Source: Rickettsia typhi (lineage in GTDB: Bacteria > Pseudomonadota > Alphaproteobacteria > Rickettsiales > UBA1997). From it: a stretch of 62,937 bases of DNA. Each line of letters starts with the position of its first letter. Within the stretch, counting starts at the first letter, position 1. Where the stretch lies: contig CAMAWV010000003.1 in the NCBI GenBank assembly GCA_945862075.1, positions 1 through 62,937 of the forward strand. The letters are read 5' to 3'. The notes beneath the pieces are model-generated. The model ran no database searches, was not told the origin of the DNA, and saw only the letters and a program-made list of their open reading frames with translations. Of this stretch, positions 1 to 62,937 are shown piece by piece. Position numbers and translations under genes: made by a program.

Positions 1-3000
1 TGTGGCAGGGGTTGGGGTGTTGTTTGTATTATTGCAAGTATAACTTACAGTAGGTGTTCCGCTATAACCACTAGCACAAATTGCTCCTGTAATTGTTACA
101 GGTGTTGTAGTGTAGCTATAAGTAAAGACACTTGGCAGATTATAGCCAGAGGTTGTAGCAACAGTGCAGGTGTTTATAATACAACCGCCAGGGTCTATGG
201 CAACAATAGTGCCATCTGAATTTTTATTATTGCAGATGTAAACAGCTTGATTATCTCCTCCGTAGCCAGTATAACCAGCTAAACAATGTTGTGAGCCACC
301 GAATAACCACATGTCATCTCCTGCATCGCTATTTCCTGCTCTATTTCCTCCATAAGGAACCATTCCGCCAATTTTAGTATAATCATAGCCAGCAACTCCA
401 GTATTTACAGAACATAGATTTACTTGACAATATGCACTCCAAGTGCCATTTGCTCGGCAAAATGGATGAGATCCACTAGTGCTAGATCCGAAACCTAAAT
501 TGCCATTACAAGTGGCTGTAATTCCATAATTAACTCTTGTGGTAGAATAATCGCTATTGGCAAGAGGGGTGCATGTGTTGATAGTGCAACTACCATTTAC
601 AAGTGCGGTTCCGCCATAAGTAGGGCAGTTGACAGTGATGGTGCCAGTATAACCAGTATCACAAGTAAGAGATTGTCCAGAAGTAAACACTCCAGAAACA
701 GATCCTGTGTATCCTGTAACGGTAGATATACCATTACACACTTTTGGTAAACTCCATTTTGTAGCTAAATAATTTTGTACGCCGTTTATTTGTGCCGCAG
801 TAAGTGCAGTGTTGTAAATTAATATTTCGGCGATGTTGCCTTGGTAATTAGATCTTAATAACAAACTACTTCCAGAATCAATAGTGGCAGTTGTTGTTTG
901 ATTAGGAGTTGATTGATTATGATAAAAATTAATATTTGTGCTGTTGCTACTGATAGCAGTAATATACTTATTGTTAGCGATTAGAGAACAACCACTGCAA
1001 GATGTGGTGTTTATTTTTATTTTACTACCATCAATCAAAATGCCCGCTGATCCTTGTGAGATAATAGTAGAATTAACAACATCTGTTGGTTGATGCACTG
1101 CAATTAATGTATAGGTTGTTGCACCACCTGCTAAAGGTAAATTAGTAGTTGCAGAAAGAGAATTAGCTGCATCAAAACTAATAGCTGGTTTGCCTAAACC
1201 AAATCCGTTGGCATTATAAGTTGGTTGATTTGCTAGTGTTGCTTGAGTTAATTTGCTAGATGCAGTTTTTCCCAAACTAAACCATTCCCCCACTTTATTA
1301 CTAGCATCTTTTATAATAGTATTGTCATTCCTTGCATCTAACCACAGAGAAGGAGCGATATTTAGAGAAGGGTAACAACCTTTTAGCATAAGAGCATTGT
1401 TTTCTCCGTTAAGAGAAGAGCAAGCATATGTTATTTCAAATGATGAATCTTTAAAATAACCAGAAGCACAAGCAATAGCATTTGTCACAAAAAAAGTATC
1501 AATATCAAGAGTGCGTCGTAATGTTGCAGCAGAAGAACCCGGAACTTGATAAGCCGACCATCCTGTTGCAGAATCCACACTTACTACACAATCAGAAAAT
1601 CCAGGACAATATCCAGGAAAACCACTTGCTAATAAATTGTTGCAATCAAGCTTTGCAGATCCTGAATTTTTTTGCAAATCACCTCCTCCTGGACATTTAA
1701 CAATCTTTCTTAAATAATCATAATCGGCATTATCTAAAATATGTCCATCATCTACTAATGTAGCACCAGAGCCAGCAATACCAATGATATCATTACAAGT
1801 TCTACCAGAACCGCCTCCACCCCCTCCAGCCACTGCAAGTTGTAAAATTTTTTTCGAATCTGTTGGATGAGCTAAAGCAATTACACTTACCTCCCCACCA
1901 CCTCCAGCATAACCAAAATTTTTTTTATAAAGAGCATAATCTTCGCTTTCACGATGCGAACCTCCAGCAAAAAATCTGTAAGGATTAACTTCGGTAGAGT
2001 TTTTTCCGCCAGCTCCCACAATAATTTTCAGAGTATAAGTTTCATCACTCTTGTAGCCTGAATGATTTCCGATTGTAAAACCATCCGATTTTTCAATTAT
2101 AAGCAGTGTAGCATCTTTGCCATTATTATTATAAGATGAAATTGCTCCAGACCCAGAAGGGGCTGTAAAAGAATATGCTGCACCACCACCACCACCCACC
2201 ATTGTGATTTTAGCAATTGCATGTGTTGCCGGAATTGTTAAATGATAAATACCTTCATTATTATATTCTAATAATTCTCCATCTAAAAAATTAATAACAA
2301 CTTTACCTTGCTTGCCATTTTCAGGAACAGAGAGCGGTAGTGAGAGCGTTGGTTGATTTACCTTTGAACCACCACAGCCATTATTATCTGTCGGGCAATT
2401 GATAGCTTGGTTAGTTAGGGTTAGAGTTCCACCAGTAAAACAGCTCTCGCAAACTACATTAGAACCATTCTCGCCTTGCGAATTGTAGTTACTTTTTATA
2501 ACTGCGATAGTGGCAAAAGAACGATAAGTAGTAAATATTTTATTGGCAATTTTATTAAAAATAGCATCAACAAATCTATTGCCAGTAAATATAAAATCAA
2601 GTTGTGCTGATTTTGTTTGACCACCGTTTACTGTTTTATCATTACTGCTAGGAGGATAGTTTTTGTTATTATTTACCACTCTTACTGCATTTTTTAATGA
2701 ACAACTATTTTGAGTATTAAACTCCACAAAACCAGATTGAGTAGCGGTAAATAAAATAAAAGGATGAGCGATTATTTTTAAACTATTACACTGAGAAGCA
2801 CTTTCTGTTGTTATATTTAGTGTTGTGTTTGGATATACTATTTGTATATCACTATCTGGTATAACAAAATAGCTTTTATTAGTATCATCGGTAATAGTTC
2901 GTGTAAATTCACATTGCGCAGGAATTATAAACTGCACGTATAAAGGTATTGAAGAGTTCTTATATGGAGAATTAGCATTATTAGATTCTGTTATTAATGA

Positions 3001-5067
3001 TTTTAAACTACTATATAAAAATTTAACAGATTGTCGGCCACTACCTGTAAACACATTTTGCTCTGTAGACGCTCCATAACCACTAAAACCAAGAGCTTCT
3101 GTTGTTGGTGGCGAAACAGCGGCAACAATAACTCTTTTACTATAATTAGCAATTCTCACCTGTTCTGCTTCAGATTTATATGATGTTGTTATTTGATGTT
3201 TAGCACCACCAATTGAAACATAACAACTATTACCTTTGATAATTTGGTTAGAAGTGTCGCAAGCAAAATCTGATTTCGATATTGATGATGTTGGTTGTAT
3301 TTTTATATAGCATAAACTTTGGCACAAATCACTAAGATCTTCATTAATATGAGATATATTTTGTTTTTCTAAATCAGTAAGCGAACGATAGAAATTTAGT
3401 TTATTTTTAACTTCAGAATTAACGGAAGCAATATTTAAAGATACATCTGGTTTATATTGAGTTTGTTGTGTAAAAAGAAAATCCTGCGGTGTTGAGCAAC
3501 TATCATTAAGTAATGAAAAATTATTATAAGCAAGTAAACTTGAAGCAGATGAAGGAACCTTATGACAAAAAGTGGTTGTTGAGCCACCTAAAGTAATATT
3601 ACCAGTTGCTTGAATTTCTATTTTTGAACCAGCCGATATTTGCAAACCGCCACTTGAATTTGGCGAGACTTTTAAAGTAGTAGCTTTCCAAGGTGGCATA
3701 AATTTATCTTCAGAATCAATATTTTCTACCGATGGTATTAAAAAACATTGAACCCCTGCTCTTTCGCAAGTATTTTTTAAATCATTAATCGTTTTTGCAG
3801 GAGATACAGATATATCGTCATAGATAAAAGATTTACTATTAATAATTTCTTTTAATTTAATTTTATATTCAACACCAGAGTTGACTATTTCTAAAATAGA
3901 ATTAGTGCCAAAATGATGTTGGGTATCGGTGTTTATTCTTCTTTCGGCAGTATCAATTCCACCACTTGGCTTGATTTTGATATAATCAAATATCGCTACT
4001 GCCGTCGCACCATTTAATGGCGATTGAGTTGATGACAATGATAATGATGAAAAAATTTTTGTAAATTTATCTTTACTAACAATACTTGATAGGGTAATTA
4101 TGCAAGTAAATTCTGTTCTTCCTGTGTCATAAGTACAGCTATCAAAACTATCTATCAATATTTGTTTTTCTGTAGAATCAAAAACAATTGCTAAAGCTAA
4201 TTTTTTTTTGTTATCAGGGTTTTTTAACTGACCAAAAACCGTTGTTAACTCAGAACCATTATCATTCCACGTAAAAGTGTAAATAGGCTTATCGCGATTG
4301 CTTGCATTGAGACTAGCCTTAAGATTAGTGGTGGCAACAAATAAATTACCATCTAGGTTATGTTTTAAAATAGATGTTCCAGTGTAAGGGTTAAATATAA
4401 TATTTTCAGGTACCGAATCCGAAATACCAACAACAGCGGCTTGATTTTTGATTGGTAATCGGCTTGCAACATGGCTACAAGCCCTCTTTTTTCTGCATCG
4501 CTCAACACAACTCGTTATGCACTGATTTTTAACAGAATCAAGATCTAGATTTAAGGAGGGTGATATCGGGGCTTTTGCCCAAGAAGCTGCATTATAAGCA
4601 AATAAGTAATTAGCCGGAACAATAGGAGAAGTGGTTGAAAAGTTACAGCCCTTATTTTTATATGCCACTGCTTCATCAGGTTTTATGCAACTCAATTCAT
4701 TTATCTGAAGTTCGGGTGATTCGCTATCGTTATTCAAAAAGCGACAATTTCTTATAAAAGCGGCGCCATTAGCTTCTATATAGCCGTCGTAAGATTCTTC
4801 ACAAGATTGGTCGTTTGCTCCATTTAAGCAATAATTTAAATCTTTATTCGAACTAGAAAAACCACTTGCTTCTACTACTCGATAAGAACATTCATCATCT
4901 ACATTAGTGGGAGATCTAAAAGATAATACATCAAATCTTTCGATATCTTCAAAACCAAAATCATCTGCTTCAATACAAACGCCCTTTCTGTTATCACAAG
5001 CACACAAAACAAAAAGGCAAGCAAGTAAAAATATTTTTAATGAGTGAGTTTTAATATTATAAAACAA
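1..5067 (-). CDS. Giant predicted surface lipoprotein, partial (C-terminus beyond left window edge); poly-Gly domain, LamG-like domain, Cys-bounded Sushi/CCP-like modules
   Basis: The minus-strand frame in register with base 1 has no stop from 5085 to 1. I read every plus-strand triplet and none is TTA/CTA/TCA. An in-frame TAA lies at 5088-5086. TTG at 5067 gives MFYNIKTHSLKIFLLACLFVLCAC/D, a signal peptide plus lipobox-like LCAC. It is missing from the ORF track because no stop lies inside the window. Confidence 0.8.
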   Translation of the reverse strand, partial: MFYNIKTHSLKIFLLACLFVLCACDNRKGVCIEADDFGFEDIERFDVLSFRSPTNVDDECSYRVVEASGFSSSNKDLNYCLNGANDQSCEESYDGYIEANGAAFIRNCRFLNNDSESPELQINELSCIKPDEAVAYKNKGCNFSTTSPIVPANYLFAYNAASWAKAPISPSLNLDLDSVKNQCITSCVERCRKKRACSHVASRLPIKNQAAVVGISDSVPENIIFNPYTGTSILKHNLDGNLFVATTNLKASLNASNRDKPIYTFTWNDNGSELTTVFGQLKNPDNKKKLALAIVFDSTEKQILIDSFDSCTYDTGRTEFTCIITLSSIVSKDKFTKIFSSLSLSSTQSPLNGATAVAIFDYIKIKPSGGIDTAERRINTDTQHHFGTNSILEIVNSGVEYKIKLKEIINSKSFIYDDISVSPAKTINDLKNTCERAGVQCFLIPSVENIDSEDKFMPPWKATTLKVSPNSSGGLQISAGSKIEIQATGNITLGGSTTTFCHKVPSSASSLLAYNNFSLLNDSCSTPQDFLFTQQTQYKPDVSLNIASVNSEVKNKLNFYRSLTDLEKQNISHINEDLSDLCQSLCYIKIQPTSSISKSDFACDTSNQIIKGNSCYVSIGGAKHQITTSYKSEAEQVRIANYSKRVIVAAVSPPTTEALGFSGYGASTEQNVFTGSGRQSVKFLYSSLKSLITESNNANSPYKNSSIPLYVQFIIPAQCEFTRTITDDTNKSYFVIPDSDIQIVYPNTTLNITTESASQCNSLKIIAHPFILFTATQSGFVEFNTQNSCSLKNAVRVVNNNKNYPPSSNDKTVNGGQTKSAQLDFIFTGNRFVDAIFNKIANKIFTTYRSFATIAVIKSNYNSQGENGSNVVCESCFTGGTLTLTNQAINCPTDNNGCGGSKVNQPTLSLPLSVPENGKQGKVVINFLDGELLEYNNEGIYHLTIPATHAIAKITMVGGGGGAAYSFTAPSGSGAISSYNNNGKDATLLIIEKSDGFTIGNHSGYKSDETYTLKIIVGAGGKNSTEVNPYRFFAGGSHRESEDYALYKKNFGYAGGGGEVSVIALAHPTDSKKILQLAVAGGGGGGSGRTCNDIIGIAGSGATLVDDGHILDNADYDYLRKIVKCPGGGDLQKNSGSAKLDCNNLLASGFPGYCPGFSDCVVSVDSATGWSAYQVPGSSAATLRRTLDIDTFFVTNAIACASGYFKDSSFEITYACSSLNGENNALMLKGCYPSLNIAPSLWLDARNDNTIIKDASNKVGEWFSLGKTASSKLTQATLANQPTYNANGFGLGKPAISFDAANSLSATTNLPLAGGATTYTLIAVHQPTDVVNSTIISQGSAGILIDGSKIKINTTSCSGCSLIANNKYITAISSNSTNINFYHNQSTPNQTTTATIDSGSSLLLRSNYQGNIAEILIYNTALTAAQINGVQNYLATKWSLPKVCNGISTVTGYTGSVSGVFTSGQSLTCDTGYTGTITVNCPTYGGTALVNGSCTINTCTPLANSDYSTTRVNYGITATCNGNLGFGSSTSGSHPFCRANGTWSAYCQVNLCSVNTGVAGYDYTKIGGMVPYGGNRAGNSDAGDDMWLFGGSQHCLAGYTGYGGDNQAVYICNNKNSDGTIVAIDPGGCIINTCTVATTSGYNLPSVFTYSYTTTPVTITGAICASGYSGTPTVSYTCNNTNNTPTPAT

Positions 5068-5119
5068 GATACCAAAATGATTATATTACAGAGAATGTTT
5101 TTTATCAAGTAATAAAGGA

Positions 5120-5133
5120 ACCGTTGCAACGGT
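5120..5133. repeat. Perfect 14-bp palindrome ACCGTTGCAACGGT between the znuC-like stop and the giant ORF start
   Basis: Read directly; the sequence equals its own reverse complement. It lies 53 nt upstream of the TTG at 5067. Function unknown (operator candidate). Confidence 0.5.
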
Positions 5134-5218
5134 CTTTAAGATTTTATGGTAATTATAAAAAAGTAATTTAGCAAGAAAAATTTTATTATAAAAATGTTAC
5201 ATCTAGAATGATATTTCA

Positions 5219-6836: not shown

Positions 6837-8021
6837 TTATCTATCGATCTCTCCAAATACAATATCTTGCGTTGAAATTATGGTTACAACATCGGCCAAT
6901 AAATGACCTTTAGTCATGAATTCTAAACCTTGCAAATGTGCAAAACCCGGGGCACGCAAACGGCATCGATATGGTTTACTGGTGCCATCTGCTACTATAT
7001 AAACTCCAAATTCACCTTTTGGAGCTTCGACCGCCGCATAAACTTCGCCAGCAGGAACTTTATAACCTTCGGTGAAAAGTTTAAAATGAGCAATTAAACT
7101 TTCCATTGATTCCTTCATGTTGTGGCGACTTGGAGGAGCAATTTTAGGATCTTGACAAAACACTGCTCCATCGGGCATTTTATTTAGGCATTGCTTAATT
7201 ATTTTTAGAGATTCTCGCATTTCTTGCACTCTAATTAAATAACGATCGTAAGAATCGCCGTTTTTACCAATGGGAATGTCAAAATCTAGCTCGTTATAAA
7301 CCTCATAAGGTTGATTTTTACGCAGATCCCAAGCAATGCCAGAGCCTCTTAACATTGGCCCAGAAAAACCCCAATCAAGCGCCTGCTCTACTGAAACAAC
7401 ACCAATATCAACTAGTCGTTGTTTAAAAATACGGTTATCATTTAGTAAATTTTCGAGATTATCGATTTTTGCTTCGAATTCGCAAATAAAAACGTGTATT
7501 TCGTCAAGCAAACCAATAGGCAAATCAAGAGCCACACCTCCTGGCCTTATGTAGGCTGAGTGCATGCGAGAGCCAGAAACTTTTTCGTAAAAAATCATGA
7601 TTTTTTCTCTTTCTTCAAATAGCCATAAAAGAGGAGTCATGGCACCAACATCGAGAGCTTGAGTGGTAATATTCATGATATGATTTAAAATTCTAGTAAG
7701 CTCTGAAAACAACACTCGAATAAAACTAGCCCTTCTTGGAACTTGGCATTTTAAAAGCTTTTCAACAGCCAAAGCAAAAGCATGCTCTTGACACATTGGC
7801 GAAACATAATCGAGCCTATCAAAATAGGGCACAGCTTGTAAATAAGTTTTGTATTCAATAAGTTTCTCGGTGCCACGATGCAACAAGCCAATGTGAGGAT
7901 CGGCCCTAGTTATAACTTCACCATCAAGCTCAAGTATTAGCCTTAAAACACCATGAGCTGCAGGATGTTGAGGGCCAAAATTAATAGTGATATTTTTAGA
8001 ATTTACTTGATTTTGCAACAT
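6837..8021 (-). CDS. nuoD: NADH-quinone oxidoreductase subunit D
   Basis: [22 protein letters not shown], and C-terminal DIVFGEIDR are canonical NuoD/49-kDa subunit motifs. Confidence 0.95.
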
Positions 8022-10857: not shown

Positions 10858-11988
10858 TTATTTTTGGCAATCTAATATTTTTATTAAACATCTACCGATA
10901 TGATAAGCCAAATTTACTGGAACCGCATTTCCTATTTGTTTGTATTGCGAAGAGATAGAGCCTTGAAATTGCCACTCATCAGGAAAAGTTTGTATTCTTG
11001 CATACTCTCTTATATTTAGAGGTCTTGTTTCGGTTGGATGGCATCTTTCTGTTTGTTTTTGTGAAGGGCTGCAGGTTAAGGTAAGAGATGGCTCCTCTCT
11101 GCTTAGTCTTCTAGCTATTCCAGTTCTGCCACCTGTATGATAAAAACTTGTCATCATATATTCTTTTTGTATATCTTCTGGAAGATCTCTCCAATAGCCA
11201 CCTTCTGGCACCATATCAAGTATTTCTTTTTTTTTCTTTGGATACTGTTGCCCAAAAGACACTGGGCAGTTTTTTAAAGCATCACCAACTGTAATAATAT
11301 ATTTTTTTTCTTCCGGAAAAATAAATGGCAAATCTAAATCTTTTCTTATAGCCATAATTATTAACCTCTCTCTTTTTTGCGGAACATCTAAATATTGAGA
11401 TTTCAATACTTTATATCTTACATTGTAACCAATTTCTTGCAATATGTTTATCATGATATCTAATGTTTTTCCGCCATCATGTTGTAATAAACCTTTAACA
11501 TTCTCACCTATGGCAATTTTTGGCCTCACCTCTTTTATACATCTTGCAAATTGAAAAAATAAAGCACCACGACTATCTTCAAAACCAAGATTTTTACCAG
11601 CATAACTAAAAGCCTGACAAGGAAAACCGCCTTGCACAACATCTATATTGTTATATTTTGTAAAATCTATGTTGGTTATATCGTCATGAATAATATTGAT
11701 ATTTTTAGCTAGATTAGTTCTTAAGGTTGCAACAGCATCTTTATTGAGCTCATTTAATAAAGCATGATTTAAGCCAGCATTTTCAAAACCTAAAGCCGCT
11801 CCTCCGGCTCCAGCAAATAATTCTATTACCTGATAATTAGTTTTTTGTGAAGATTTTAATATTTGATACCTACCGAAATTTGGTTTAATAATATTTTTGT
11901 TATTCATATTATGATTATTAAAATCAAATAATTCTAGGTTTTGATTAAGAGAGAAGTTATTTTTATTTGTGGTGAGATTATGTTTCAT
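10858..11988 (-). CDS. DNA (cytosine-5)-methyltransferase (type II RM, M subunit)
   Basis: m5C MTase motifs in order: I ELFAGAGG, IV GGFPCQAFS, VI ENVKGL, VIII QKRERLI, X GNAVPV. Confidence 0.9.
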   Translation of the reverse strand: MKHNLTTNKNNFSLNQNLELFDFNNHNMNNKNIIKPNFGRYQILKSSQKTNYQVIELFAGAGGAALGFENAGLNHALLNELNKDAVATLRTNLAKNINIIHDDITNIDFTKYNNIDVVQGGFPCQAFSYAGKNLGFEDSRGALFFQFARCIKEVRPKIAIGENVKGLLQHDGGKTLDIMINILQEIGYNVRYKVLKSQYLDVPQKRERLIIMAIRKDLDLPFIFPEEKKYIITVGDALKNCPVSFGQQYPKKKKEILDMVPEGGYWRDLPEDIQKEYMMTSFYHTGGRTGIARRLSREEPSLTLTCSPSQKQTERCHPTETRPLNIREYARIQTFPDEWQFQGSISSQYKQIGNAVPVNLAYHIGRCLIKILDCQK

Positions 11989-11994
11989 AGATTT

Positions 11995-12705
11995 TTATTT
12001 ATTTTTTATAAATGCTTGATTAAATATTTTTTCAAACAAGGGATCAGAAATAATTTTTTCACTATCATTTTTTAAAATATCAGATAATATAGCAGGTATT
12101 GCTTGATATATTTGATATATTGCATTTTTATCGCCTGTAACTATTTCATAGAAAGAGTTGCCATCTATTTCTATTATATTTAGATTTTGCAATCTTTTTT
12201 CTTTTGTTTTATTATCAGAAGGTGTAAATGGTTTGTTAATTATTTTTTTTGAAATAATAGAAACATAATATGCACTATAGCCATAATATTTATTTTCTAA
12301 TAAATTATTAAGGTCATCATAAATAGCTATTTTATGATTTCCTTTAGTTGTATTAAATTTATTTTTTACTTCTGCTATTATTTTTCTTTCTTTATTTATC
12401 ACATCAATAATCCCTCCTGTTTCTAAGTTTTCCCATCCCTCAATACTTCCTAATAATTTTTGATGAAAAGGACCTATTTCATTTTGAAATGTTTTTTGAA
12501 TTTGTCTGATTTTTTCAAATTGCAACCATTCTGTTAGAGAAATATTATGAAAAGAAGCATCAAATATCGCAGAAAAAGGATCAATTATATTACGATATAA
12601 ATCAACATCTTTTGCTTTTACCGATTTCTGCCAAGCTAAAACTATATTATAACATAAATTATAAAGTTTTTCGTATTTTAAAAATTTAATTTGATAATTA
12701 TTCAT
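11995..12705 (-). CDS. Putative type II restriction endonuclease (PD-(D/E)XK; Eco47II/Sau96I-like candidate)
   Basis: Ends 6 nt upstream of, and co-directional with, the m5C MTase. IDV-x10-AEVK fits D...(D/E)XK. Size 236 aa. Family assignment is from memory only. Confidence 0.5.
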   Translation of the reverse strand: MNNYQIKFLKYEKLYNLCYNIVLAWQKSVKAKDVDLYRNIIDPFSAIFDASFHNISLTEWLQFEKIRQIQKTFQNEIGPFHQKLLGSIEGWENLETGGIIDVINKERKIIAEVKNKFNTTKGNHKIAIYDDLNNLLENKYYGYSAYYVSIISKKIINKPFTPSDNKTKEKRLQNLNIIEIDGNSFYEIVTGDKNAIYQIYQAIPAILSDILKNDSEKIISDPLFEKIFNQAFIKNK

Positions 12706-26832: not shown

Positions 26833-28845
26833 TTAGTTAGCTAAAATTTTAGTTATAAAATCAAGAGCAGGCAAAATTTTATCAGAATTTACACCAAAGC
26901 CCATCGCTAAATCTTTTTTACCGCCACCGCCTTTACCTTGTAAAATTTCTACAACATTGCCAATATTTTGCCCAGCATCAAAATTAGCCACCGAACTTGC
27001 TAACAAAACATTAACTTTACTATTATTTTCGATACCAAAAAAAACAATAACTGCTGGCATATGAACTTGATTTGATTTTTGATAAATACTTAAAATATTG
27101 CGTAAATCGGCAATTGAAGCATTATGAAAAGTTTGATGAATCAAATAATAATTAGCAAAATTTTGAATGTTAGTATTAACAATACTTTGTTGCCAAAGTT
27201 GTTGTTTTAGCTGGAGAATTTCTTTATCTTTTTGTTTTTGTTGCTGTAAAAAATCAATTCCAATTTGATTAGTTTTTTGCAAAACTAATGTAGTTGCTTG
27301 TTGTTGAGTATGATGAATAATATTTTCTTGATTTTCATCGATGAAAAAACTATTGTCATCAAAACCAACTTTATTTGATAAAAACTGACTTTCGGCAATT
27401 TTTGCTTCTTCAAATTGTTGTTTGATTTTTAAAGAATCAAGCAAGGCATAAAGTTTTTGCTCTTGCAATTTTAAATGTTGCAGAGCATAAAAACCAGTTT
27501 TTGCGGTAATTCTTCTGATGCCAGAAGCAATACCGTTTTCATTGATTATTTTAAATAAACCAATATTACCAGTGTTAGCAACATGGGTTCCCCCGCATAA
27601 CTCGTGCGATTGCCCCATTTGCACCACTCGAACTGTATCGGCATATTTTTCGCCAAAAAGAGCTTCGGCACCTTCTTGTTTTGCCTGCTCCAAGCTCGTT
27701 ATTTTAGTTTGCACAGGAGAATTTTGCCTGATGTAAAAATTTATTAACTCTTCTATTTGTTGCAATTCTAGATGATTTACCGCTCTGTTAAAATTAAAAT
27801 CAAAAGTGAGCTGATGCGCATCGACATTTGAACCTTTTTGAGTAATGGCATTGCCTAAAACTTGCTTTAAAGCCTTGTGTAAAAGATGAGTAGCAGAATG
27901 ATTTTGAGCTCGAAGTTGGCGATTTCTCTGATTTACCAAGGTTGTCACTTGATTTCCTACTGCAAATTTTCCAACTCCACAAGCAACTAAATGCAAAAAT
28001 AAACCACCTGCCACTTTTTTGGTTTCTTTAATATCAAGATAGCTTGATAATTTTTGATAACTAAGATTTTCTTGATAATTTTCTTGTAAAATAATGTTGC
28101 CATCATCGCCTTTCTGCCCACCAGAAGTAGCATAAAATGAAGTGTTGTCTAAAATTATGGCGATTTGTTGGGAGTTTTCTTGATTAAGATTAATATTTTC
28201 TACCAATTTATTGCCCACCAAAATTCCTAAAATTGTTGCTTTAGCAATAGTTGAAGTATGATAGCAATTTTGTGTGTTGCCAAATTGTTGTTGCAAAGCA
28301 AAAAATATAGCATCTTCAGCCTGTTCGCCACTACCTATCCAGCTATTTTTGGCTTTTTCTTTTTGTTGTTGCATGGCTTGCTCAAACTCTTGCAAATTAA
28401 CTGTAATGTTTTTTTCTTGACATATTTGCTGAGTTAAATCAAGCGGAAAACCATAAGTATCGTAAAGTTTAAAAGCAACTTCGCCTGATAATTGTTGATT
28501 GATTATTTGAGTTTCATCAAGTATTTTTAAGCCTTTTTCAAGTGTTTCTAAAAATTTTTGTTCTTCAAAAAATAAAGTGTTGGTGATGGTATCTTTTGCT
28601 CTTATTAACTCTGGATAAGCCTCGCCCATTTCGGCAATTAAAGTATCAACCAATAAATGCATTAGCGGTTTTTTTTTGCCAAAATTATAGCACTGCAACA
28701 TTGCTCTACGCATAATTCGACGTAGCACATAACCCCTACCTTCGTTGCTTGGCAAAATACCATCGGCAATTAAAAAACAAGAAGAACGAAGATGATCGGC
28801 GATAATTTTAAATTGTGGATTTATAGACAAATTGTTGGCAAGCAT
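26833..28845 (-). CDS. alaS: AlaRS-derived protein lacking the aminoacylation domain (tRNA-recognition, editing and C-Ala domains only)
   Basis: Begins MLANNLSINPQFKIIADHLRSSCFLIADGILPSNEGRGYVLRRIMRRA, which in E. coli AlaRS lies near residue 280. It keeps YDTYGFPLDLT, FYATSGGQ, HSATHLLH, CGGTH and GKGGGGKKDLAMG. I chose the ATG at 28845, just after the EamA stop. The track start at 28902 overlaps EamA. Confidence 0.85.
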   Translation of the reverse strand: MLANNLSINPQFKIIADHLRSSCFLIADGILPSNEGRGYVLRRIMRRAMLQCYNFGKKKPLMHLLVDTLIAEMGEAYPELIRAKDTITNTLFFEEQKFLETLEKGLKILDETQIINQQLSGEVAFKLYDTYGFPLDLTQQICQEKNITVNLQEFEQAMQQQKEKAKNSWIGSGEQAEDAIFFALQQQFGNTQNCYHTSTIAKATILGILVGNKLVENINLNQENSQQIAIILDNTSFYATSGGQKGDDGNIILQENYQENLSYQKLSSYLDIKETKKVAGGLFLHLVACGVGKFAVGNQVTTLVNQRNRQLRAQNHSATHLLHKALKQVLGNAITQKGSNVDAHQLTFDFNFNRAVNHLELQQIEELINFYIRQNSPVQTKITSLEQAKQEGAEALFGEKYADTVRVVQMGQSHELCGGTHVANTGNIGLFKIINENGIASGIRRITAKTGFYALQHLKLQEQKLYALLDSLKIKQQFEEAKIAESQFLSNKVGFDDNSFFIDENQENIIHHTQQQATTLVLQKTNQIGIDFLQQQKQKDKEILQLKQQLWQQSIVNTNIQNFANYYLIHQTFHNASIADLRNILSIYQKSNQVHMPAVIVFFGIENNSKVNVLLASSVANFDAGQNIGNVVEILQGKGGGGKKDLAMGFGVNSDKILPALDFITKILAN

Positions 28846-28855
28846 ATTTAACAAG

Positions 28856-29740
28856 TTATTTAAAAATTTTGTGGTAAAAAAAATCAAGCGAAAGAGCGAC
28901 AATAATTAATAACAAACCAATAGTACTGATAAGTTGAAATTGATAATTTTCAAAAAAACTCGAAACTGCAAGAGCAATAACAGGATAAACCAAGGCGGTA
29001 TAATTAGCTTTAGCAGTGCCAATTTTTTGGATTAAGTAATACAAACACACAAAAGCTAAAATTGAAGCAAAGAAAATTTGATAAATCAACGAACCAACAT
29101 AAGAATAGCTAGAATCAAAATTAAATTTATAGCCCAAAACCAAGCTATAACACAAAAAATAAATAGCCCCAAATGCCGAAGCAAAAGAAATAGTAGTAAA
29201 GAGCGGAGTATGATTTTTTTTACTGTTGCAGGCCACCAAATAATTACCAAACGAAAAAACCAACATCATTAAAAAAGCATAAACAAAGCCAATTATTGGC
29301 AAGCCACTATTATTTTGCAAAACTTTTGGCAAAATAAAAAAAGCCAAACCAATGGTGCCAATAAAACCACTTAATAAAATTTTTTTACTAATTTTATGAC
29401 CATCAAGCCAAGCTTTTATTAACTCAGAGCTAATTACCGACAAACTAAAAATAACTGCAATAATACCACTTGGAATAATTTTAGTAGTATGATAACCAAT
29501 AAAAAAATTTAACGAAAAATTACAAAGAGCAATAAATAACAGATAAATAAATTCGTTTTTTTTTAGTTTTAGCCTAGTTTTGGTAAAAAAACAAACCGCA
29601 AACATAATGATTGAAACTGCAGAAAACCGATAAAATAAAGATATTTCTGGTGCAACAAGTTGAGTTGAGATTTGCAATTTCATTGCAAACCAACTAAAAC
29701 CCCAAGCTAAACACATTCCGATAAATGCTAAAATAATCAT
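28856..29740 (-). CDS. EamA/DMT-family transporter
   Basis: Ten-TM profile formed by two EamA-like halves. Confidence 0.8.
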   Translation of the reverse strand: MIILAFIGMCLAWGFSWFAMKLQISTQLVAPEISLFYRFSAVSIIMFAVCFFTKTRLKLKKNEFIYLLFIALCNFSLNFFIGYHTTKIIPSGIIAVIFSLSVISSELIKAWLDGHKISKKILLSGFIGTIGLAFFILPKVLQNNSGLPIIGFVYAFLMMLVFSFGNYLVACNSKKNHTPLFTTISFASAFGAIYFLCYSLVLGYKFNFDSSYSYVGSLIYQIFFASILAFVCLYYLIQKIGTAKANYTALVYPVIALAVSSFFENYQFQLISTIGLLLIIVALSLDFFYHKIFK

Positions 29741-59096: not shown

Positions 59097-60520
59097 TTAT
59101 TAAAAAATTCTGGATAAGCTTTTGTTTGATGCAATAACCGATATTTACCATTCTCTTGCTGAAAATATACCTGTAAATATTCATTTAACTCATCTTCAAC
59201 CTTAAAAATTACCATCGTTTCTGGATTTTTTTCTGACACCTTATTATCAGTAAATAAATCGAGTACTGTATATTTTTTATGTCCAAGAGTAAAATTAGTA
59301 GAAAGTTGCATATCTTTGGCAAAAATAACTTCAATTACTGATAATACCCACTTTTTATCGGTTTTTTGAGCAATTGCAGTAAGCGATGTAATATTGGCAA
59401 ATTGCGAACCTAAAATTGCCTCACTGACTTCGGTTAAATTATAAAGATTAAAAACAAAAGTTTCTGGCTTATTTTTAACTTTCCATAAAAAAGTTGTTTT
59501 AAGATTATCAATAATTTTTTTGTTAATTTTTCTTTTGGCAAAAAAACCATCAATTTTTTGAATCAAATCGGGCTGAAATTTGAAATCTTCTCGCCAAGAT
59601 TGCTCATAATTGCGATGATATACAGGTATGAGTTGCCAATTTTCTTTTAAAACACCGACCTCTTGTTTATCATAAGCAAGATTGATATGCCATTTGCTAA
59701 CAAAATTATGATCGATTAATTGATTTTTACCAAAAAACTTACCTTTATTGTGAAAATATTGCATTTTTTTATACTGCTCATTGTTTATCAAATAATTTGT
59801 CAATAAAAAGTTGTCGAGCTGTTGTAAATTTTGCTGGTTGCTACTAACAATTTTTAATAGATCTTGATTTTTTTGTAAATTTTCTGAGGCAAATTTAATA
59901 GCTGTTTTACTATTAGAAACTGCCACTTTAACAATATCGAAGTTACTTTTTAAGTTATTAGTGGCAAATTCTAGCAACAAGCCATTATCAGTAAAAGCAT
60001 TAAGAGCAATGCTTTCTATTGCTCTTACCCTATCAGAAGCATATTGATAATTATCGGCATCGAGATCGATCATTTTAGCAATAAACTCTTGGTTATCAAG
60101 AAGCTTCCATGTGGCAAATTTTAATACATTTCTGCTTAATAAAGCCGATTCGGCAATAAAAATAGCATTTCCTCTTACCTCTGGCGCAGCATATTTTAAA
60201 ACTTCTGGCTTAATTTTGATTAACCTTTGAATAAAAATTTTATCTTGTCTTAAAATATCGGAGGCATCTTGAAAATAAACAGGATCAATAATTGCCACCT
60301 GAAAAATCAGGTTTCTATTTTGACTAAAACACACAGGCAAATCAGAAATTGCATTAGGATTTTTAAGCTCAACTTGTTGTAAAATTTGATTAAAATATTT
60401 TTCTTGATTGCTACATAATGCTGATTTTGCCGATAAGTAATTGCCAGTGGTTTGTTTAGCAAAAACTGGTAAATGTTGCCAAAAAAACAATACAAATAAA
60501 CAAAATCTAACAAAAAACAT
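59093..60520 (-). CDS. Secreted DUF4116-repeat protein (tentative)
   Basis: Signal peptide from the ATG at 60520 (MFFVRFCLFVLFFWQHLPVFA). Repeated ..LKYA/FA..L..N/D..F/I motifs are typical of DUF4116. The track's longer start overlaps nuoK. Confidence 0.55.
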   Translation of the reverse strand: MFFVRFCLFVLFFWQHLPVFAKQTTGNYLSAKSALCSNQEKYFNQILQQVELKNPNAISDLPVCFSQNRNLIFQVAIIDPVYFQDASDILRQDKIFIQRLIKIKPEVLKYAAPEVRGNAIFIAESALLSRNVLKFATWKLLDNQEFIAKMIDLDADNYQYASDRVRAIESIALNAFTDNGLLLEFATNNLKSNFDIVKVAVSNSKTAIKFASENLQKNQDLLKIVSSNQQNLQQLDNFLLTNYLINNEQYKKMQYFHNKGKFFGKNQLIDHNFVSKWHINLAYDKQEVGVLKENWQLIPVYHRNYEQSWREDFKFQPDLIQKIDGFFAKRKINKKIIDNLKTTFLWKVKNKPETFVFNLYNLTEVSEAILGSQFANITSLTAIAQKTDKKWVLSVIEVIFAKDMQLSTNFTLGHKKYTVLDLFTDNKVSEKNPETMVIFKVEDELNEYLQVYFQQENGKYRLLHQTKAYPEFFNN

Positions 60521-60527
60521 TGATATT

Positions 60528-60842
60528 TTAACCTTTAATAGAAGATGCTTGCATAATTTCAATGTTGCCTTTATTATGAAAATAAACCACCAAAATTGCC
60601 AAAGCAATGGCCGCCTCTGCCCCAGCAATTGCCAAAACAAAAATACTAAATATTTGCCCAGAAATATCTTGCAGATAAACCGAAAAAGACACAAAATTAA
60701 TATTAACAGCCAAAAGCATAATTTCGATAGACATTAACACAGAAATAATGGTTTTGCGGTTTAAAAAAATACCCATAACCCCTATGCAAAACAACAAACC
60801 AGATAAAATAACAAAATAATTTTGCGGAATTTGATTGATCAT
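60528..60842 (-). CDS. nuoK: NADH-quinone oxidoreductase subunit K
   Basis: 104 aa, three TM segments, SIEIMLLAVNINFV and GAEAAIALAILV. Confidence 0.9.
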   Translation of the reverse strand: MINQIPQNYFVILSGLLFCIGVMGIFLNRKTIISVLMSIEIMLLAVNINFVSFSVYLQDISGQIFSIFVLAIAGAEAAIALAILVVYFHNKGNIEIMQASSIKG

Positions 60843-61564: not shown

Positions 61565-62937
61565 CTAATCAATAAACAAACTCTCTTCGCCAAGCATATC
61601 AACAATTTTTATAGCAATTTTGCCTTGTGCTTCAAGTGTATATTTGGCTTTTATTAAATCTGTTTTTCGTTTTGGAACATCGCTAAAATGAGTTGTAAAA
61701 ATTTCACCATTGTAATTTGTATCAATCAAAATATAGTCGATCTGGCTTTTAAAGTTGGTGATTTGAGTATCAAATATACTTTTCTCTAGGTTCATTTTTT
61801 GCAAGATCTGATGAGAGAGATAATTTTTAATTTCAATTTCTGCCGTCTTGCCATTTTTTTTGATTTCAATTTCAAATTCGGCTGGTTTAAATTGAATAAC
61901 TCCATCTTTTTGAATGTCGGTTATGCTTAATGTGTTTATGCCAGCACGCATTTTGTTGTGTTGGTTTTTTAGCTCTTCGATTTTAAAATAATCTTGTGTG
62001 CCAGAACAATAAACCAAAACATCTTCATCGCTTTCTTTTTCAAGTGCTTTATCAATTATTTGAGCAATATCAAGAGGGGTGAGGGGCCGATGCAAATCTA
62101 TCACTTTTACAAATTTTTCACCTTTTTTGAAGTTAAAATAATCATCATTTGATTTTTCAAGCCCATATTTTTTAACAATAATATCGGTGCTGTCTTTTAT
62201 TTCTCTAAAATCGTAATTATTAACCTTGTAATGCAAGATTTTTGCTGAAGTTTTTTGTTGATTTAATAAATCTTTGTTGTTTTCATTTATGATTTTTTGC
62301 AATCTTTTAATTGCGGTTTGAATTGAACCTTTATTGCAATCAATACCAATCCATTTTCTGCCTAGTTTTTGAGCAACCGCTTGCGTGGTGCCACTGCCCA
62401 TAAAGCAATCAAGCACAATTGAGCCCTCGTTTGAGCTTGCTTTTATAATCCTTTCAAGCAGGGCTTCGGGCTTTTGGGTGGGGTAGCCTCCATCTCTCTC
62501 ATCTGCCATATTATTAATAAACGGTATTTTCCATACATCACCAAGAGGTTTTCCTTTTAGTTCATCCAAATATTGCTTTCTGCCACCTCTTTTCATATAT
62601 TTTCTACCACTGCCATCCAGATTACAAAATTTATTTTCATAACCTTCTGGGTACTCTCCGTAGACCTTATTAAAAATAATATCGCTATTTTTTTTATACC
62701 ATATTATGGTTTCGTGATCTCTTATAAAATTATCTGCAATACTTTTAAAGCCAGAAACGTTGTCAAAATACCATACAATCTCTCTACAAAAACTCTCCTC
62801 GCCAAAAACTTCATCAAGCAAAAAACGCAAGTGGTGGCTTTTGTGCCAGTCGCAATGCAGATAAATTGATCCTTGGTCGCTTAAAAGCTCTCTTAATAAA
62901 ATTAGCCTTTCATACATAAATTGCAAATAGCTGTCGT
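61565..62937 (-). CDS. Beta-class N4/N6 DNA methyltransferase, partial (N-terminus beyond right edge), with a C-terminal extension of about 230 aa
   Basis: The frame is open to the window edge (..[11 protein letters not shown]..). [15 protein letters not shown] and motif [10 protein letters not shown] are present. The DPPY-type motif is expected upstream, outside the window. Confidence 0.8.

What the first reader, a model, noticed from the sequence alone, without database searches (positions are those of the whole stretch)
1..5067. Giant edge-truncated ORF (at least 1,689 codons) missing from the ORF track: predicted surface lipoprotein
The supplied track lists only one 72-aa ORF in the first 5.2 kb. 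Yet the minus-strand frame in register with base 1 has no stop codon from 5085 down to 1. I read every plus-strand triplet and none is TTA, CTA or TCA. The ORF is missed only because its stop lies left of the window. TTG at 5067 opens MFYNIKTHSLKIFLLACLFVLCAC-D, which has a basic n-region, a hydrophobic core and a lipobox-like LCAC. The product is rich in Cys, Gly, Asn and Thr and is modular (see the next three findings). In a genome that also encodes Sel1/ankyrin proteins, this is the strongest candidate in the window for a host-interaction or adhesion factor. It occupies about 8 percent of the window.
Basis: seen in the sequence. Interest (0 to 1): 0.7.

Follow-up and report, generated by a model that had tools for sequence, protein, structure and literature searches.

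The report
Giant cysteine-rich lipoprotein, orphan family
The first 5 kb of the window really do encode most of a roughly 2,050-residue, disulfide-rich lipoprotein found in only a handful of uncultured low-GC alphaproteobacteria; it looks like an exported binding protein that changes fast at a few hot spots, but its location and target are unknown.

Summary
The minus-strand frame is open from 5085 to base 1 (chance about 1e-56). TTG at 5067 starts a signal peptide that matches the PROSITE lipobox pattern, with Cys24. The ORF runs off the window inside a 192-bp tandem repeat. A 95%-identical syntenic ortholog is 2,053 aa long and is followed by prs.

The gene is real:
- Six lineages at 41-59% identity keep the TTG start, the lipobox, the C-D-N-R-K motif, 329 invariant positions and all 32 cysteines of the mature core.
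- The family is almost an orphan. A profile search of 1.84 billion representative proteins found only 11 hits, all of the same family.

Architecture:
- an 880-aa N-terminal region with no detectable relatives;
- a glycine-rich domain weakly related to ALK/LTK-GRD and Gly_rich_2;
- a LamG-like domain;
- 4-Cys modules resembling Sushi/CCP repeats, five in the window and nine in the full ortholog.

Between the two close strains dN/dS is about 1.5, against 0.16 for nine neighbouring genes. The changes cluster in hot spots.

'Lipoprotein' is well supported. 'Surface-exposed' and 'host adhesin' remain inference, and the invariant Asp at +2 may even mean inner-membrane retention. Both AlphaFold models failed (pLDDT 31).

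The parts
5068..5218 (-). Upstream intergenic region between the ABC-ATPase gene and the giant ORF
   Evidence: It holds a terminator-like hairpin at 5134-5119 and a promoter-like TTGATA-17-TATAAT at 5108-5080 (11 of 12 matches). Promoter-like sites are no more frequent here than in shuffled sequence (6 found, 8.4 expected), so this is only a weak hint. There is no obvious Shine-Dalgarno sequence.
4996..5067 (-). TTG start codon (5067-5065), signal peptide (residues 1-23) and lipobox Cys24 (4998-4996)
   Evidence: MFYNIKTHSLK (basic n-region), IFLLACLFV (hydrophobic core), LCAC (lipobox). It matches the pattern {DERK}(6)-[LIVMFWSTAG](2)-[LIVMFYSTAGCQ]-[AGS]-C in the window and in P0001, P0002 and P0003, and in L084-L087. 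The start is TTG at the same aligned position wherever DNA was held: the window, L001, L082/L083 and L087. In L084 and L085 a Leu codon sits at that position.
2353..4995 (-). N-terminal conserved Cys-rich region (residues 25-905) of unknown fold, the family-specific core
   Evidence: It starts with the invariant D-N-R-K-(G)-V/I-C-I-E-A-D-D-F-G-F-E. Its 28 cysteines are all invariant in six lineages. The most conserved blocks are residues 1-100, 351-500 and 751-800. No Pfam or NCBIfam match passes a cut-off and PDB sequence searches found nothing. A profile search of 1.84e9 representatives found no relatives outside the family. The AlphaFold model had mean pLDDT 31.
3166..3291 (-). Hypervariable patch (residues 593-634)
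   Evidence: 21 of the 84 amino-acid differences from the 95%-identical ortholog P0001 lie here. A 6-codon in-frame indel sits nearby at residues 509-514.
1768..2352 (-). Glycine-rich beta domain (residues 906-1100) with four strand-then-Gly-run motifs: ITMVGGGGGAAY, LKIIVGAGGKNS, FGYAGGGGEVSVIAL, LAVAGGGGGGSG
   Evidence: Pfam Gly_rich_2 scores 14.1 bits on the window sequence (cut-off 24.3). The 76%-identical fragment P0006 scores 25.8 bits on ALK_LTK_GRD (cut-off 24.5). This is the only part of the second model with pLDDT 50-78, and it is predicted as beta strands. It is nearly invariant between the two strains, with omega 0.31.
1591..1767 (-). Conserved linker (residues 1101-1159) with invariant C1125, C1142 and C1154
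   Evidence: Alignment of six lineages.
1375..1590 (-). 4-Cys Sushi/CCP-like module 0 (residues 1160-1231)
   Evidence: It scores 43.7 bits against the family module profile and contains the C..GY motif. Three of its four cysteines (C1200, C1216, C1231) are invariant in all six lineages.
748..1359 (-). LamG / concanavalin-like domain (residues 1237-1440)
   Evidence: It matches phrog_10356 'virion structural protein' at E = 1.3e-9 (3.4e-13 for P0002). Pfam Laminin_G_3 scores 14-21 bits, below the 27.6 cut-off, in the window protein, P0001, P0018 and P0020. It shares the LWLD...QP.Y...FD...IAE.L.Y..ALT..Q...V..YL..KW pattern with the repeated domains of P0019 and P0020. The domain is absent from the P0003/L086/L087 clade.
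1..738 (-). Array of 4-Cys Sushi/CCP-like modules 1-4 (residues 1444-1494, 1499-1547, 1552-1629, 1634-1689), the last cut by the window edge
   Evidence: The modules are joined by C-x-[IVA]-N-x-C linkers and each complete module has exactly 4 Cys. Residues 1508-1519 (bases 511-546) form a second hypervariable patch. Base 1 lies inside a 192-bp tandem repeat of the ortholog, 2.5 copies at 82% identity, L001 14895-15384.

Best explanation
This is a genuine, monocistronic gene for a giant (about 2,050 aa) lipoprotein of an uncultured low-GC alphaproteobacterium. The closest genomes are MAGs labelled Rickettsiales.

Inferred from sequence: the precursor is exported by Sec, lipid-modified on Cys24 and cleaved by signal peptidase II. 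The protein therefore hangs from a membrane by its N-terminus, in an oxidising compartment where its conserved cysteines form disulfides (32 in the core, 4 per module).

My reading of the layout: the membrane-proximal 1,100 residues form the conserved working part. This comprises an 880-aa family-specific region and a glycine-rich beta domain of the kind used for ligand or receptor binding in ALK/LTK and in phage tail-fibre tips. The distal C-terminus is a lineage-variable stalk and tip made of a LamG-like lectin-type domain, a variable number of Sushi/CCP-like 4-Cys modules, and a small terminal domain that differs between lineages.

A few loops change quickly between strains. I take this as diversifying selection on an exposed binding or antigenic surface, so the most likely role is binding an external (host or prey-cell) ligand.

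Shown: the gene is real, it has the lipoprotein signal, the cysteines are conserved, it is modular, and it carries an excess of amino-acid changes. Inferred: the disulfides, the orientation, surface exposure and ligand binding.
For: - Open frame and chance estimate.
- Native codon usage and codon periodicity.
- A 95%-identical full-length ortholog of 2,053 aa in the same gene order, ending 117 bp before prs.
- Six lineages at 41-59% identity share the lipobox, C-D-N-R-K, 329 invariant positions of 1,165 and all 32 mature-core cysteines. A TTG start at the same aligned position was confirmed in the lineages where DNA was held.
- All five indels against the ortholog are in frame.
- 26 C-terminal modules each have exactly 4 Cys.
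- The module profile against PDB gives 20 of 22 weak hits to CCP proteins, the best being DAF at E = 0.023.
- One P0003 module passes the Pfam Sushi cut-off, 26.9 against 20.7 bits.
- Glycine-rich domain: P0006 passes the ALK_LTK_GRD cut-off; the window sequence is sub-threshold for Gly_rich_2. TNF-like plus glycine-rich modules act as receptor-binding tips in phage fibres and as the ligand-binding part of ALK (PMC9608196).
- The LamG-like domain matches phrog_10356 at E = 1e-9.
- Giant ORF: 86 nonsynonymous and 17 synonymous differences. Nine neighbouring genes: 34 and 57. Fisher p = 3e-11. The changes cluster at residues 509-514, 593-634 and 1508-1519, while residues 230-500 and 900-1165 are almost unchanged.
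Against: - No curated family model passes its cut-off on the window's own sequence.
- Both AlphaFold models are unusable (mean pLDDT 31) and the Foldseek search gave nothing, so no fold is confirmed.
- hhalign against human ALK-GRD was not significant. Against human CCP modules it was only weak (P = 0.0019, probability 14%).
- An invariant Asp at +2 is the inner-membrane retention signal in E. coli (my own knowledge).
- No surface-export machinery or conserved partner gene lies nearby, and the neighbours differ between clades.
- Omega above 1 at about 1.5% synonymous divergence could also reflect relaxed constraint, unpurged polymorphism or patchy recombination.
- No expression data exist.
Confidence: 0.55

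Rival explanations
1. It is a periplasmic envelope lipoprotein that never reaches the cell surface. The invariant Asp at +2 keeps it in the inner membrane, and it acts inside the envelope, for example as a scaffold or a binder of cell-wall or periplasmic glycans.
For: C-D-N-R-K is invariant in all lineages, and +2 Asp is the Lol-avoidance signal in E. coli (my own knowledge). No Slam-type, T5SS or other surface-export feature was seen: P0001 has no C-terminal barrel domain by Pfam. In one clade the gene sits next to mltA. Disulfide-rich folds are compatible with the periplasm.
Against: A protein of about 2,000 aa built from an extended array of modules is very long for the periplasm. The excess of amino-acid changes in hot spots and the lineage-variable distal end are more typical of exposed proteins. 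The +2 rule is not universal outside enterobacteria. In Klebsiella PulA the same Asp precedes type II secretion to the surface (my own knowledge).
Confidence: 0.25
2. It is a decaying or unconstrained gene: a large ORF that is still open but no longer under selection in this lineage.
For: Omega is about 1.5 overall. Differences by codon position are 42/41/20, without the usual third-position excess.
Against: The frame stays open for 1,689 to 2,053 codons in AT-rich DNA in both strains, where about 7% of random codons would be stops. All indels are in frame. Residues 230-500 and 900-1165 have omega 0.3-0.6. Six lineages keep 329 invariant positions and every core cysteine. The changes are clustered, not spread evenly.
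Confidence: 0.05
3. It is a phage-derived receptor-binding or tailocin fibre protein, or a polymorphic toxin with a variable C-terminal toxin domain.
For: The LamG-like domain matches a phage virion structural protein family. Glycine-rich domains occur in phage fibre tips. The extreme C-terminal 60-170 aa differ between lineages.
Against: The gene is flanked by housekeeping genes and no phage genes are nearby. The viral contig scan found no relative. It has a lipoprotein signal. No conserved small downstream ORF could serve as an immunity gene. The C-terminal domains have no toxin-family match.
Confidence: 0.05

Closest known systems
Eukaryotic Sushi/CCP (SCR) repeat proteins, e.g. decay-accelerating factor CD55, factor H, CR1 (Pfam PF00084)
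   Same: The modules are 49-78 aa long with four invariant cysteines, a C-x-x-G-Y motif after the second Cys and short 4-residue linkers, and they are strung head to tail. A few modules have the G-T-W motif between Cys3 and Cys4. The module profile pulls almost only CCP proteins out of PDB, and one family module passes the Pfam cut-off.
   Different: The first half of the module lacks the C-P-x-P...N-G signature. The Trp is absent from most modules. The window's own modules do not reach any threshold. This is a bacterial lipoprotein anchored at the N-terminus. The fold and disulfide pattern are unverified.
TNF-like plus glycine-rich domain of ALK/LTK receptors and phage fibre tips (Pfam PF12810 ALK_LTK_GRD, PF21722 Gly_rich_2; Pam3 gp24, S16 gp38)
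   Same: There are four beta-strand-then-polyglycine motifs in about 190 residues. One family member passes the PF12810 cut-off, and the window sequence gives sub-threshold Gly_rich_2 hits. In the known cases this module binds a ligand or receptor (PMC9608196).
   Different: It has fewer and shorter Gly runs. Direct hhalign to human ALK was not significant and PDB sequence searches found no ALK or fibre hit. Here the domain is embedded in the middle of a giant lipoprotein rather than at a fibre tip.
LamG / concanavalin A-like lectin domains of bacterial surface proteins and phage structural proteins (Pfam PF13385; phrog_10356)
   Same: The domain is about 200 aa and has the LWLD...IAE.L.Y..ALT..Q...YL..KW signature, as in the repeated domains of P0019 and P0020. 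The PHROG match has E = 1e-9.
   Different: It is below the Pfam cut-off (14-21 against 27.6 bits). It is optional in the family, being absent from one clade.
Klebsiella pullulanase PulA, a lipoprotein with Asp at +2 that is exported to the surface by type II secretion (my own knowledge)
   Same: Both are large lipoproteins with Asp at +2. In the ortholog locus a prepilin-peptidase gene lies three genes downstream.
   Different: There is no sequence similarity. No type II secretion genes were identified in the sequence available. This is only an analogy for a possible export route.

Membership tests
Bacterial lipoprotein (signal peptidase II substrate, PROSITE PS51257-type) | Basic n-region, hydrophobic core, and a lipobox [LVI]-x-[AGS]-C within the first ~35 residues | tested here: met
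   The pattern matches with Cys at residue 24 in the window protein, P0001, P0002 and P0003 and in L084-L087. K6 and K11 form the n-region.
Bacterial lipoprotein (signal peptidase II substrate, PROSITE PS51257-type) | Actual lipid modification and cleavage by Lgt and LspA | not testable with these tools
   This needs expression with globomycin or lipid labelling. No dedicated predictor (LipoP, SignalP) was available.
Sushi/CCP repeat (PF00084) | About 60-aa module with four invariant cysteines | tested here: met
   24 of the 26 aligned modules are complete and have exactly 4 Cys; two long segments of 8 Cys split into two modules each.
Sushi/CCP repeat (PF00084) | Pfam HMM score above the gathering cut-off (20.7 bits) | tested here: not met
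   The window modules gave no hit. One P0003 module scored 26.9 bits and one P0002 module 14.2 bits. The window protein is therefore Sushi-like only through its family.
Sushi/CCP repeat (PF00084) | Conserved Trp between Cys3 and Cys4, and the C-P-x-P / N-G N-terminal signature | tested here: not met
   The Trp is present in only 4 of 26 modules (one of them in the window, CRANGTWSAYC) and the N-terminal signature is absent. hhalign aligns only the Cys2-Cys3 core (P = 0.0019, probability 14%).
Sushi/CCP repeat (PF00084) | Beta-sandwich fold with 1-3 and 2-4 disulfides | tested here: inconclusive
   The AlphaFold model of this region has pLDDT below 50.
ALK/LTK-type glycine-rich domain (PF12810) / Gly_rich_2 (PF21722) | Pfam HMM score above the gathering cut-off | tested here: not met
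   The window sequence scores 14.1 bits on Gly_rich_2 (cut-off 24.3). The family fragment P0006 scores 25.8 bits on ALK_LTK_GRD (cut-off 24.5).
ALK/LTK-type glycine-rich domain (PF12810) / Gly_rich_2 (PF21722) | Several polyglycine runs, each following a beta strand, packing into a lattice | tested here: inconclusive
   Four such motifs are visible in the sequence. The strands are predicted at pLDDT 50-78, but the Gly runs are not modelled confidently. Foldseek gave no hit.
LamG / concanavalin-like (PF13385) | Pfam HMM score above the gathering cut-off (27.6 bits) | tested here: not met
   Scores are 14.4-21 bits in the window protein, P0001 and P0018. Homology to a real domain family is still supported by phrog_10356 at E = 1.3e-9.
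Polymorphic toxin / contact-dependent inhibition protein | Variable C-terminal toxin domain followed by a cognate immunity gene | tested here: not met
   The C-termini do vary. However, the downstream genes are prs, mltA or unrelated small ORFs, and no toxin family matched.
Autotransporter / type V secreted adhesin | C-terminal beta-barrel translocator domain | tested here: not met
   No such Pfam domain was found in the full-length homologs P0001-P0003.

The most novel reading that the evidence does not exclude
This is the founding example of an undescribed class of N-terminally lipid-anchored giant proteins in Rickettsiales-like bacteria. They combine three module types typical of animal extracellular proteins (Sushi/CCP-like repeats, a LamG domain and an ALK-type glycine-rich ligand-binding domain) with an 880-aa domain of entirely new fold. 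On this reading they serve as a rapidly diversifying ligand for a eukaryotic host-cell receptor.
Probability: 0.2. Interest if true: 0.7.

Novelty: new variant of a known kind. Interest (0 to 1): 0.45.

Why it matters
If the protein is exposed and binds host cells, it would be a candidate attachment or recognition factor for a poorly known group of aquatic, probably protist-associated, alphaproteobacteria. It would also be a rare bacterial use of CCP-like and ALK-type glycine-rich modules. The 880-aa N-terminal region has no detectable relative among 1.84 billion representative proteins, so it may hold a new fold. On the practical side, the case shows that ORF tracks which drop edge-running ORFs can miss the largest gene of a contig, and that this contig probably broke at the gene's internal tandem repeat.

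Tried and rejected
- **AlphaFold2.** I modelled residues 25-900 and 896-1689 with the 4-sequence alignments. Both models had mean pLDDT 31.
- **Foldseek.** Searching the second model against PDB gave no match at E <= 0.001.
- **PDB sequence searches.** The whole-family profile found nothing. The glycine-rich profile and P0006 found only chance Gly-run matches. The LamG region found one uncharacterised protein, 5bmt, at E = 0.004.
- **Family libraries.** NCBIfam gave no hit. The PHROG search hit only the LamG region.
- **Collection scans.** The genome-contig scan with the giant protein found no relative. The viral-contig scan found none.
- **Word-index search with the short module profile.** It scored nothing and did not even retrieve the family itself, so it is uninformative.
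- **Conserved partner gene.** I looked for one and rejected the idea, because the neighbours differ between clades.
- **Promoter scan.** The promoter-like site upstream is not above the shuffled expectation.
- **Other copies of the modules.** A search of all ORFs in the window, L001, L082 and L083 found the modules only in the giant gene.
Full report
**Observation**

Translating the minus strand from 5100 to 1 gives a single stop, at 5088-5086, and then 1,695 open codons to base 1.
- The other five frames of the same stretch carry 89-205 stops each, and none stays open for more than 83 codons.
- With the local base composition about 7.3% of random codons would be stops, so the chance of such an open frame is about 10^-55.6.
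- The ORF lister shows only a 72-aa plus-strand ORF here, because it omits ORFs that run off an end.
- GC at codon positions 1/2/3 is 0.40/0.46/0.19, and codon usage correlates with the neighbouring genes (r = 0.87).

**Start and signal peptide**

TTG at 5067 is the only canonical start upstream of the hydrophobic segment.
- The product begins MFYNIKTHSLKIFLLACLFVLCAC|DNRK and matches the PROSITE-type lipobox pattern with Cys24.
- The start is TTG at the same aligned position in the window, L001, L082/L083 and L087. L084 and L085 have a Leu codon there.
- The lipobox and the residues C-D-N-R-K-(G)-V/I-C-I-E-A-D-D-F-G-F-E recur in every homolog recovered.
- A promoter-like site (11 of 12 matches) ends 12 nt before the TTG. 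Such sites are no more frequent here than in shuffled sequence, so I give it little weight.

**The missing end**

Only three full-length homologs exist among 5.8 billion proteins.
- P0001 is 95% identical and 2,053 aa long.
- It lies in the same gene order as the window (gshA, a nuoD-like gene, panC, an ABC ATPase, the giant gene), and its stop is 117 bp before prs.
- Base 1 of the window falls about 155 nt into a 192-bp tandem repeat of that ortholog, 2.5 copies at 82% identity.

The contig therefore most likely broke at the gene's own internal repeat, and about 364 codons are missing.

**Is it a real gene?**

Long-term conservation says yes.
- A metagenome scan added four loci. Six lineages at 41-59% identity share 329 invariant positions in the first 1,165 residues.
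- These include all 32 cysteines of the mature core.
- All indels against P0001 are in frame.

Short-term evolution is unusual.
- Against P0001 the giant ORF has about 86 nonsynonymous and 17 synonymous differences, giving omega of about 1.5.
- Nine neighbouring genes on the same two contigs have 34 and 57, giving omega 0.16. Fisher's exact test gives p = 3e-11.
- The amino-acid changes cluster at residues 509-514 (a 6-codon indel), 593-634 and 1508-1519.
- Residues 230-500 and 900-1165 are almost unchanged.

This pattern fits diversifying selection on a few loops, or patchy recombination. It does not fit decay.

**How rare is it?**

- A HMMER profile of the conserved core, run against 1.84 billion representative proteins, returned 11 hits. 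All are the same family or fragments of it.
- Nothing was found in one genome per species of GTDB or in viral contigs.
- The neighbouring genes differ between clades, so there is no conserved partner gene.

**Organism**

- The enolase in the window is 68% identical to those of two MAGs labelled Rickettsiales, and about 60% identical to those of other Alphaproteobacteria.
- The window is 31.6% GC.
- It encodes Gram-negative envelope functions such as TatC, MlaD and an SLT transglycosylase, an ankyrin-repeat protein and a DUF4116 protein, and several restriction-modification genes.
- A host-associated lifestyle is plausible but not shown.

**Architecture**

*Residues 25-905.*
- This is a Cys-rich, family-specific region.
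- It has no match in Pfam, NCBIfam or PDB sequences.

*Residues 906-1100.*
- This is a glycine-rich beta domain with four strand-then-Gly-run motifs.
- The window sequence scores 14.1 bits on Gly_rich_2, below the cut-off.
- The 76%-identical fragment P0006 just passes the ALK_LTK_GRD cut-off, 25.8 against 24.5 bits.
- In phage fibre tips and in ALK, the TNF-like plus glycine-rich unit is the receptor- or ligand-binding part (PMC9608196).

*Residues 1237-1440.*
- This is a LamG-like domain.
- It matches phrog_10356 at E = 1.3e-9 and gives consistent but sub-threshold Laminin_G_3 hits.
- It is absent from one clade.

*Residues 1160-1231 and 1444 to the end.*
- These are modules of 49-78 aa joined by C-x-[IVA]-N-x-C linkers.
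- Each has exactly four cysteines and a C-x-x-G-Y motif.
- A profile of 26 modules retrieves almost only Sushi/CCP proteins from PDB, 20 of 22 weak hits, the best being DAF at E = 0.023.
- One P0003 module passes the Pfam Sushi cut-off. The window's own modules do not.
- hhalign to human CCP modules aligns only the Cys2-Cys3 core, with P = 0.0019.

I therefore call the modules Sushi/CCP-like and do not file them as members. The number and order of modules and the extreme C-terminal domain vary between lineages.

**Structure prediction**

Both AlphaFold runs used only four sequences and gave mean pLDDT 31. The Foldseek search was empty. No fold is confirmed.

**Mechanism**

The best reading is an N-terminally lipid-anchored, disulfide-rich extracytoplasmic protein. 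Its conserved membrane-proximal part carries the core function and a probable ligand-binding glycine-rich domain. Its distal LamG and CCP-like array varies between lineages and strains. This points to a binding protein on an exposed surface.

The main rival is a protein retained in the periplasm. The invariant Asp at +2 is the inner-membrane retention signal in E. coli (my own knowledge). The same residue also precedes type II secretion of the lipoprotein PulA, however, and the rule is untested in this lineage.

**Verdict**

The finding is real and modestly interesting. It is a near-orphan giant lipoprotein with an unusual mix of domain types and a strong signal of amino-acid diversification, but it has no confirmed fold, location or ligand.

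Noticed in passing
window 26833-28902 (-): The alanyl-tRNA synthetase-like ORF (689 aa, TTG start) matches Pfam tRNA-synt_2c only from profile position 264 onward, plus the tRNA_SAD and DHHA1 domains. The gene immediately upstream is an EamA transporter, so the N-terminal part of the catalytic domain is not encoded here. It may be truncated, split or a paralog.
   Followed up: no
window 45115-45948 (-): A 277-aa ORF carries only pieces of an MmeI-type restriction-modification enzyme: the end of the N-terminal domain, the helicase spacer and the first 50 positions of the methyltransferase domain. It is probably a gene fragment.
   Followed up: no
window 10858-12705 (-), 61565-62926 (-); L001 20293-21854: Several restriction-modification genes sit in a small stretch. 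An Eco47II-type endonuclease with a C5 DNA methylase lies between ftsW and eno, and there is an N6/N4 methylase at the right end of the window. In the ortholog contig, split N6_N4 methylase ORFs lie next to a HinfI-type endonuclease.
   Followed up: no
window 54449-56698 (-) and 59093-60694 (-): There is a 749-aa ankyrin-repeat protein and a 533-aa protein with DUF4116 repeats, both typical of bacteria that live with eukaryotic cells.
   Followed up: partly
window 6837-8021 (-): A Complex1_49kDa (NuoD-like) gene stands alone between panC and gshA rather than in a nuo operon. In the L082 contig a NuoF-like gene is likewise isolated. Respiratory complex I genes appear to be scattered in these genomes.
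   Followed up: no
L087 10925-11332 (+): A 135-aa ATG ORF overlaps the last 130 bases of the giant gene's homolog in another frame. It is probably spurious, but I did not examine it.
   Followed up: no
L001 17735-18529: A prepilin peptidase gene lies three genes downstream of the giant gene in the ortholog contig. This would matter only if the lipoprotein were exported by a type II secretion or pilus-related system.
   Followed up: no
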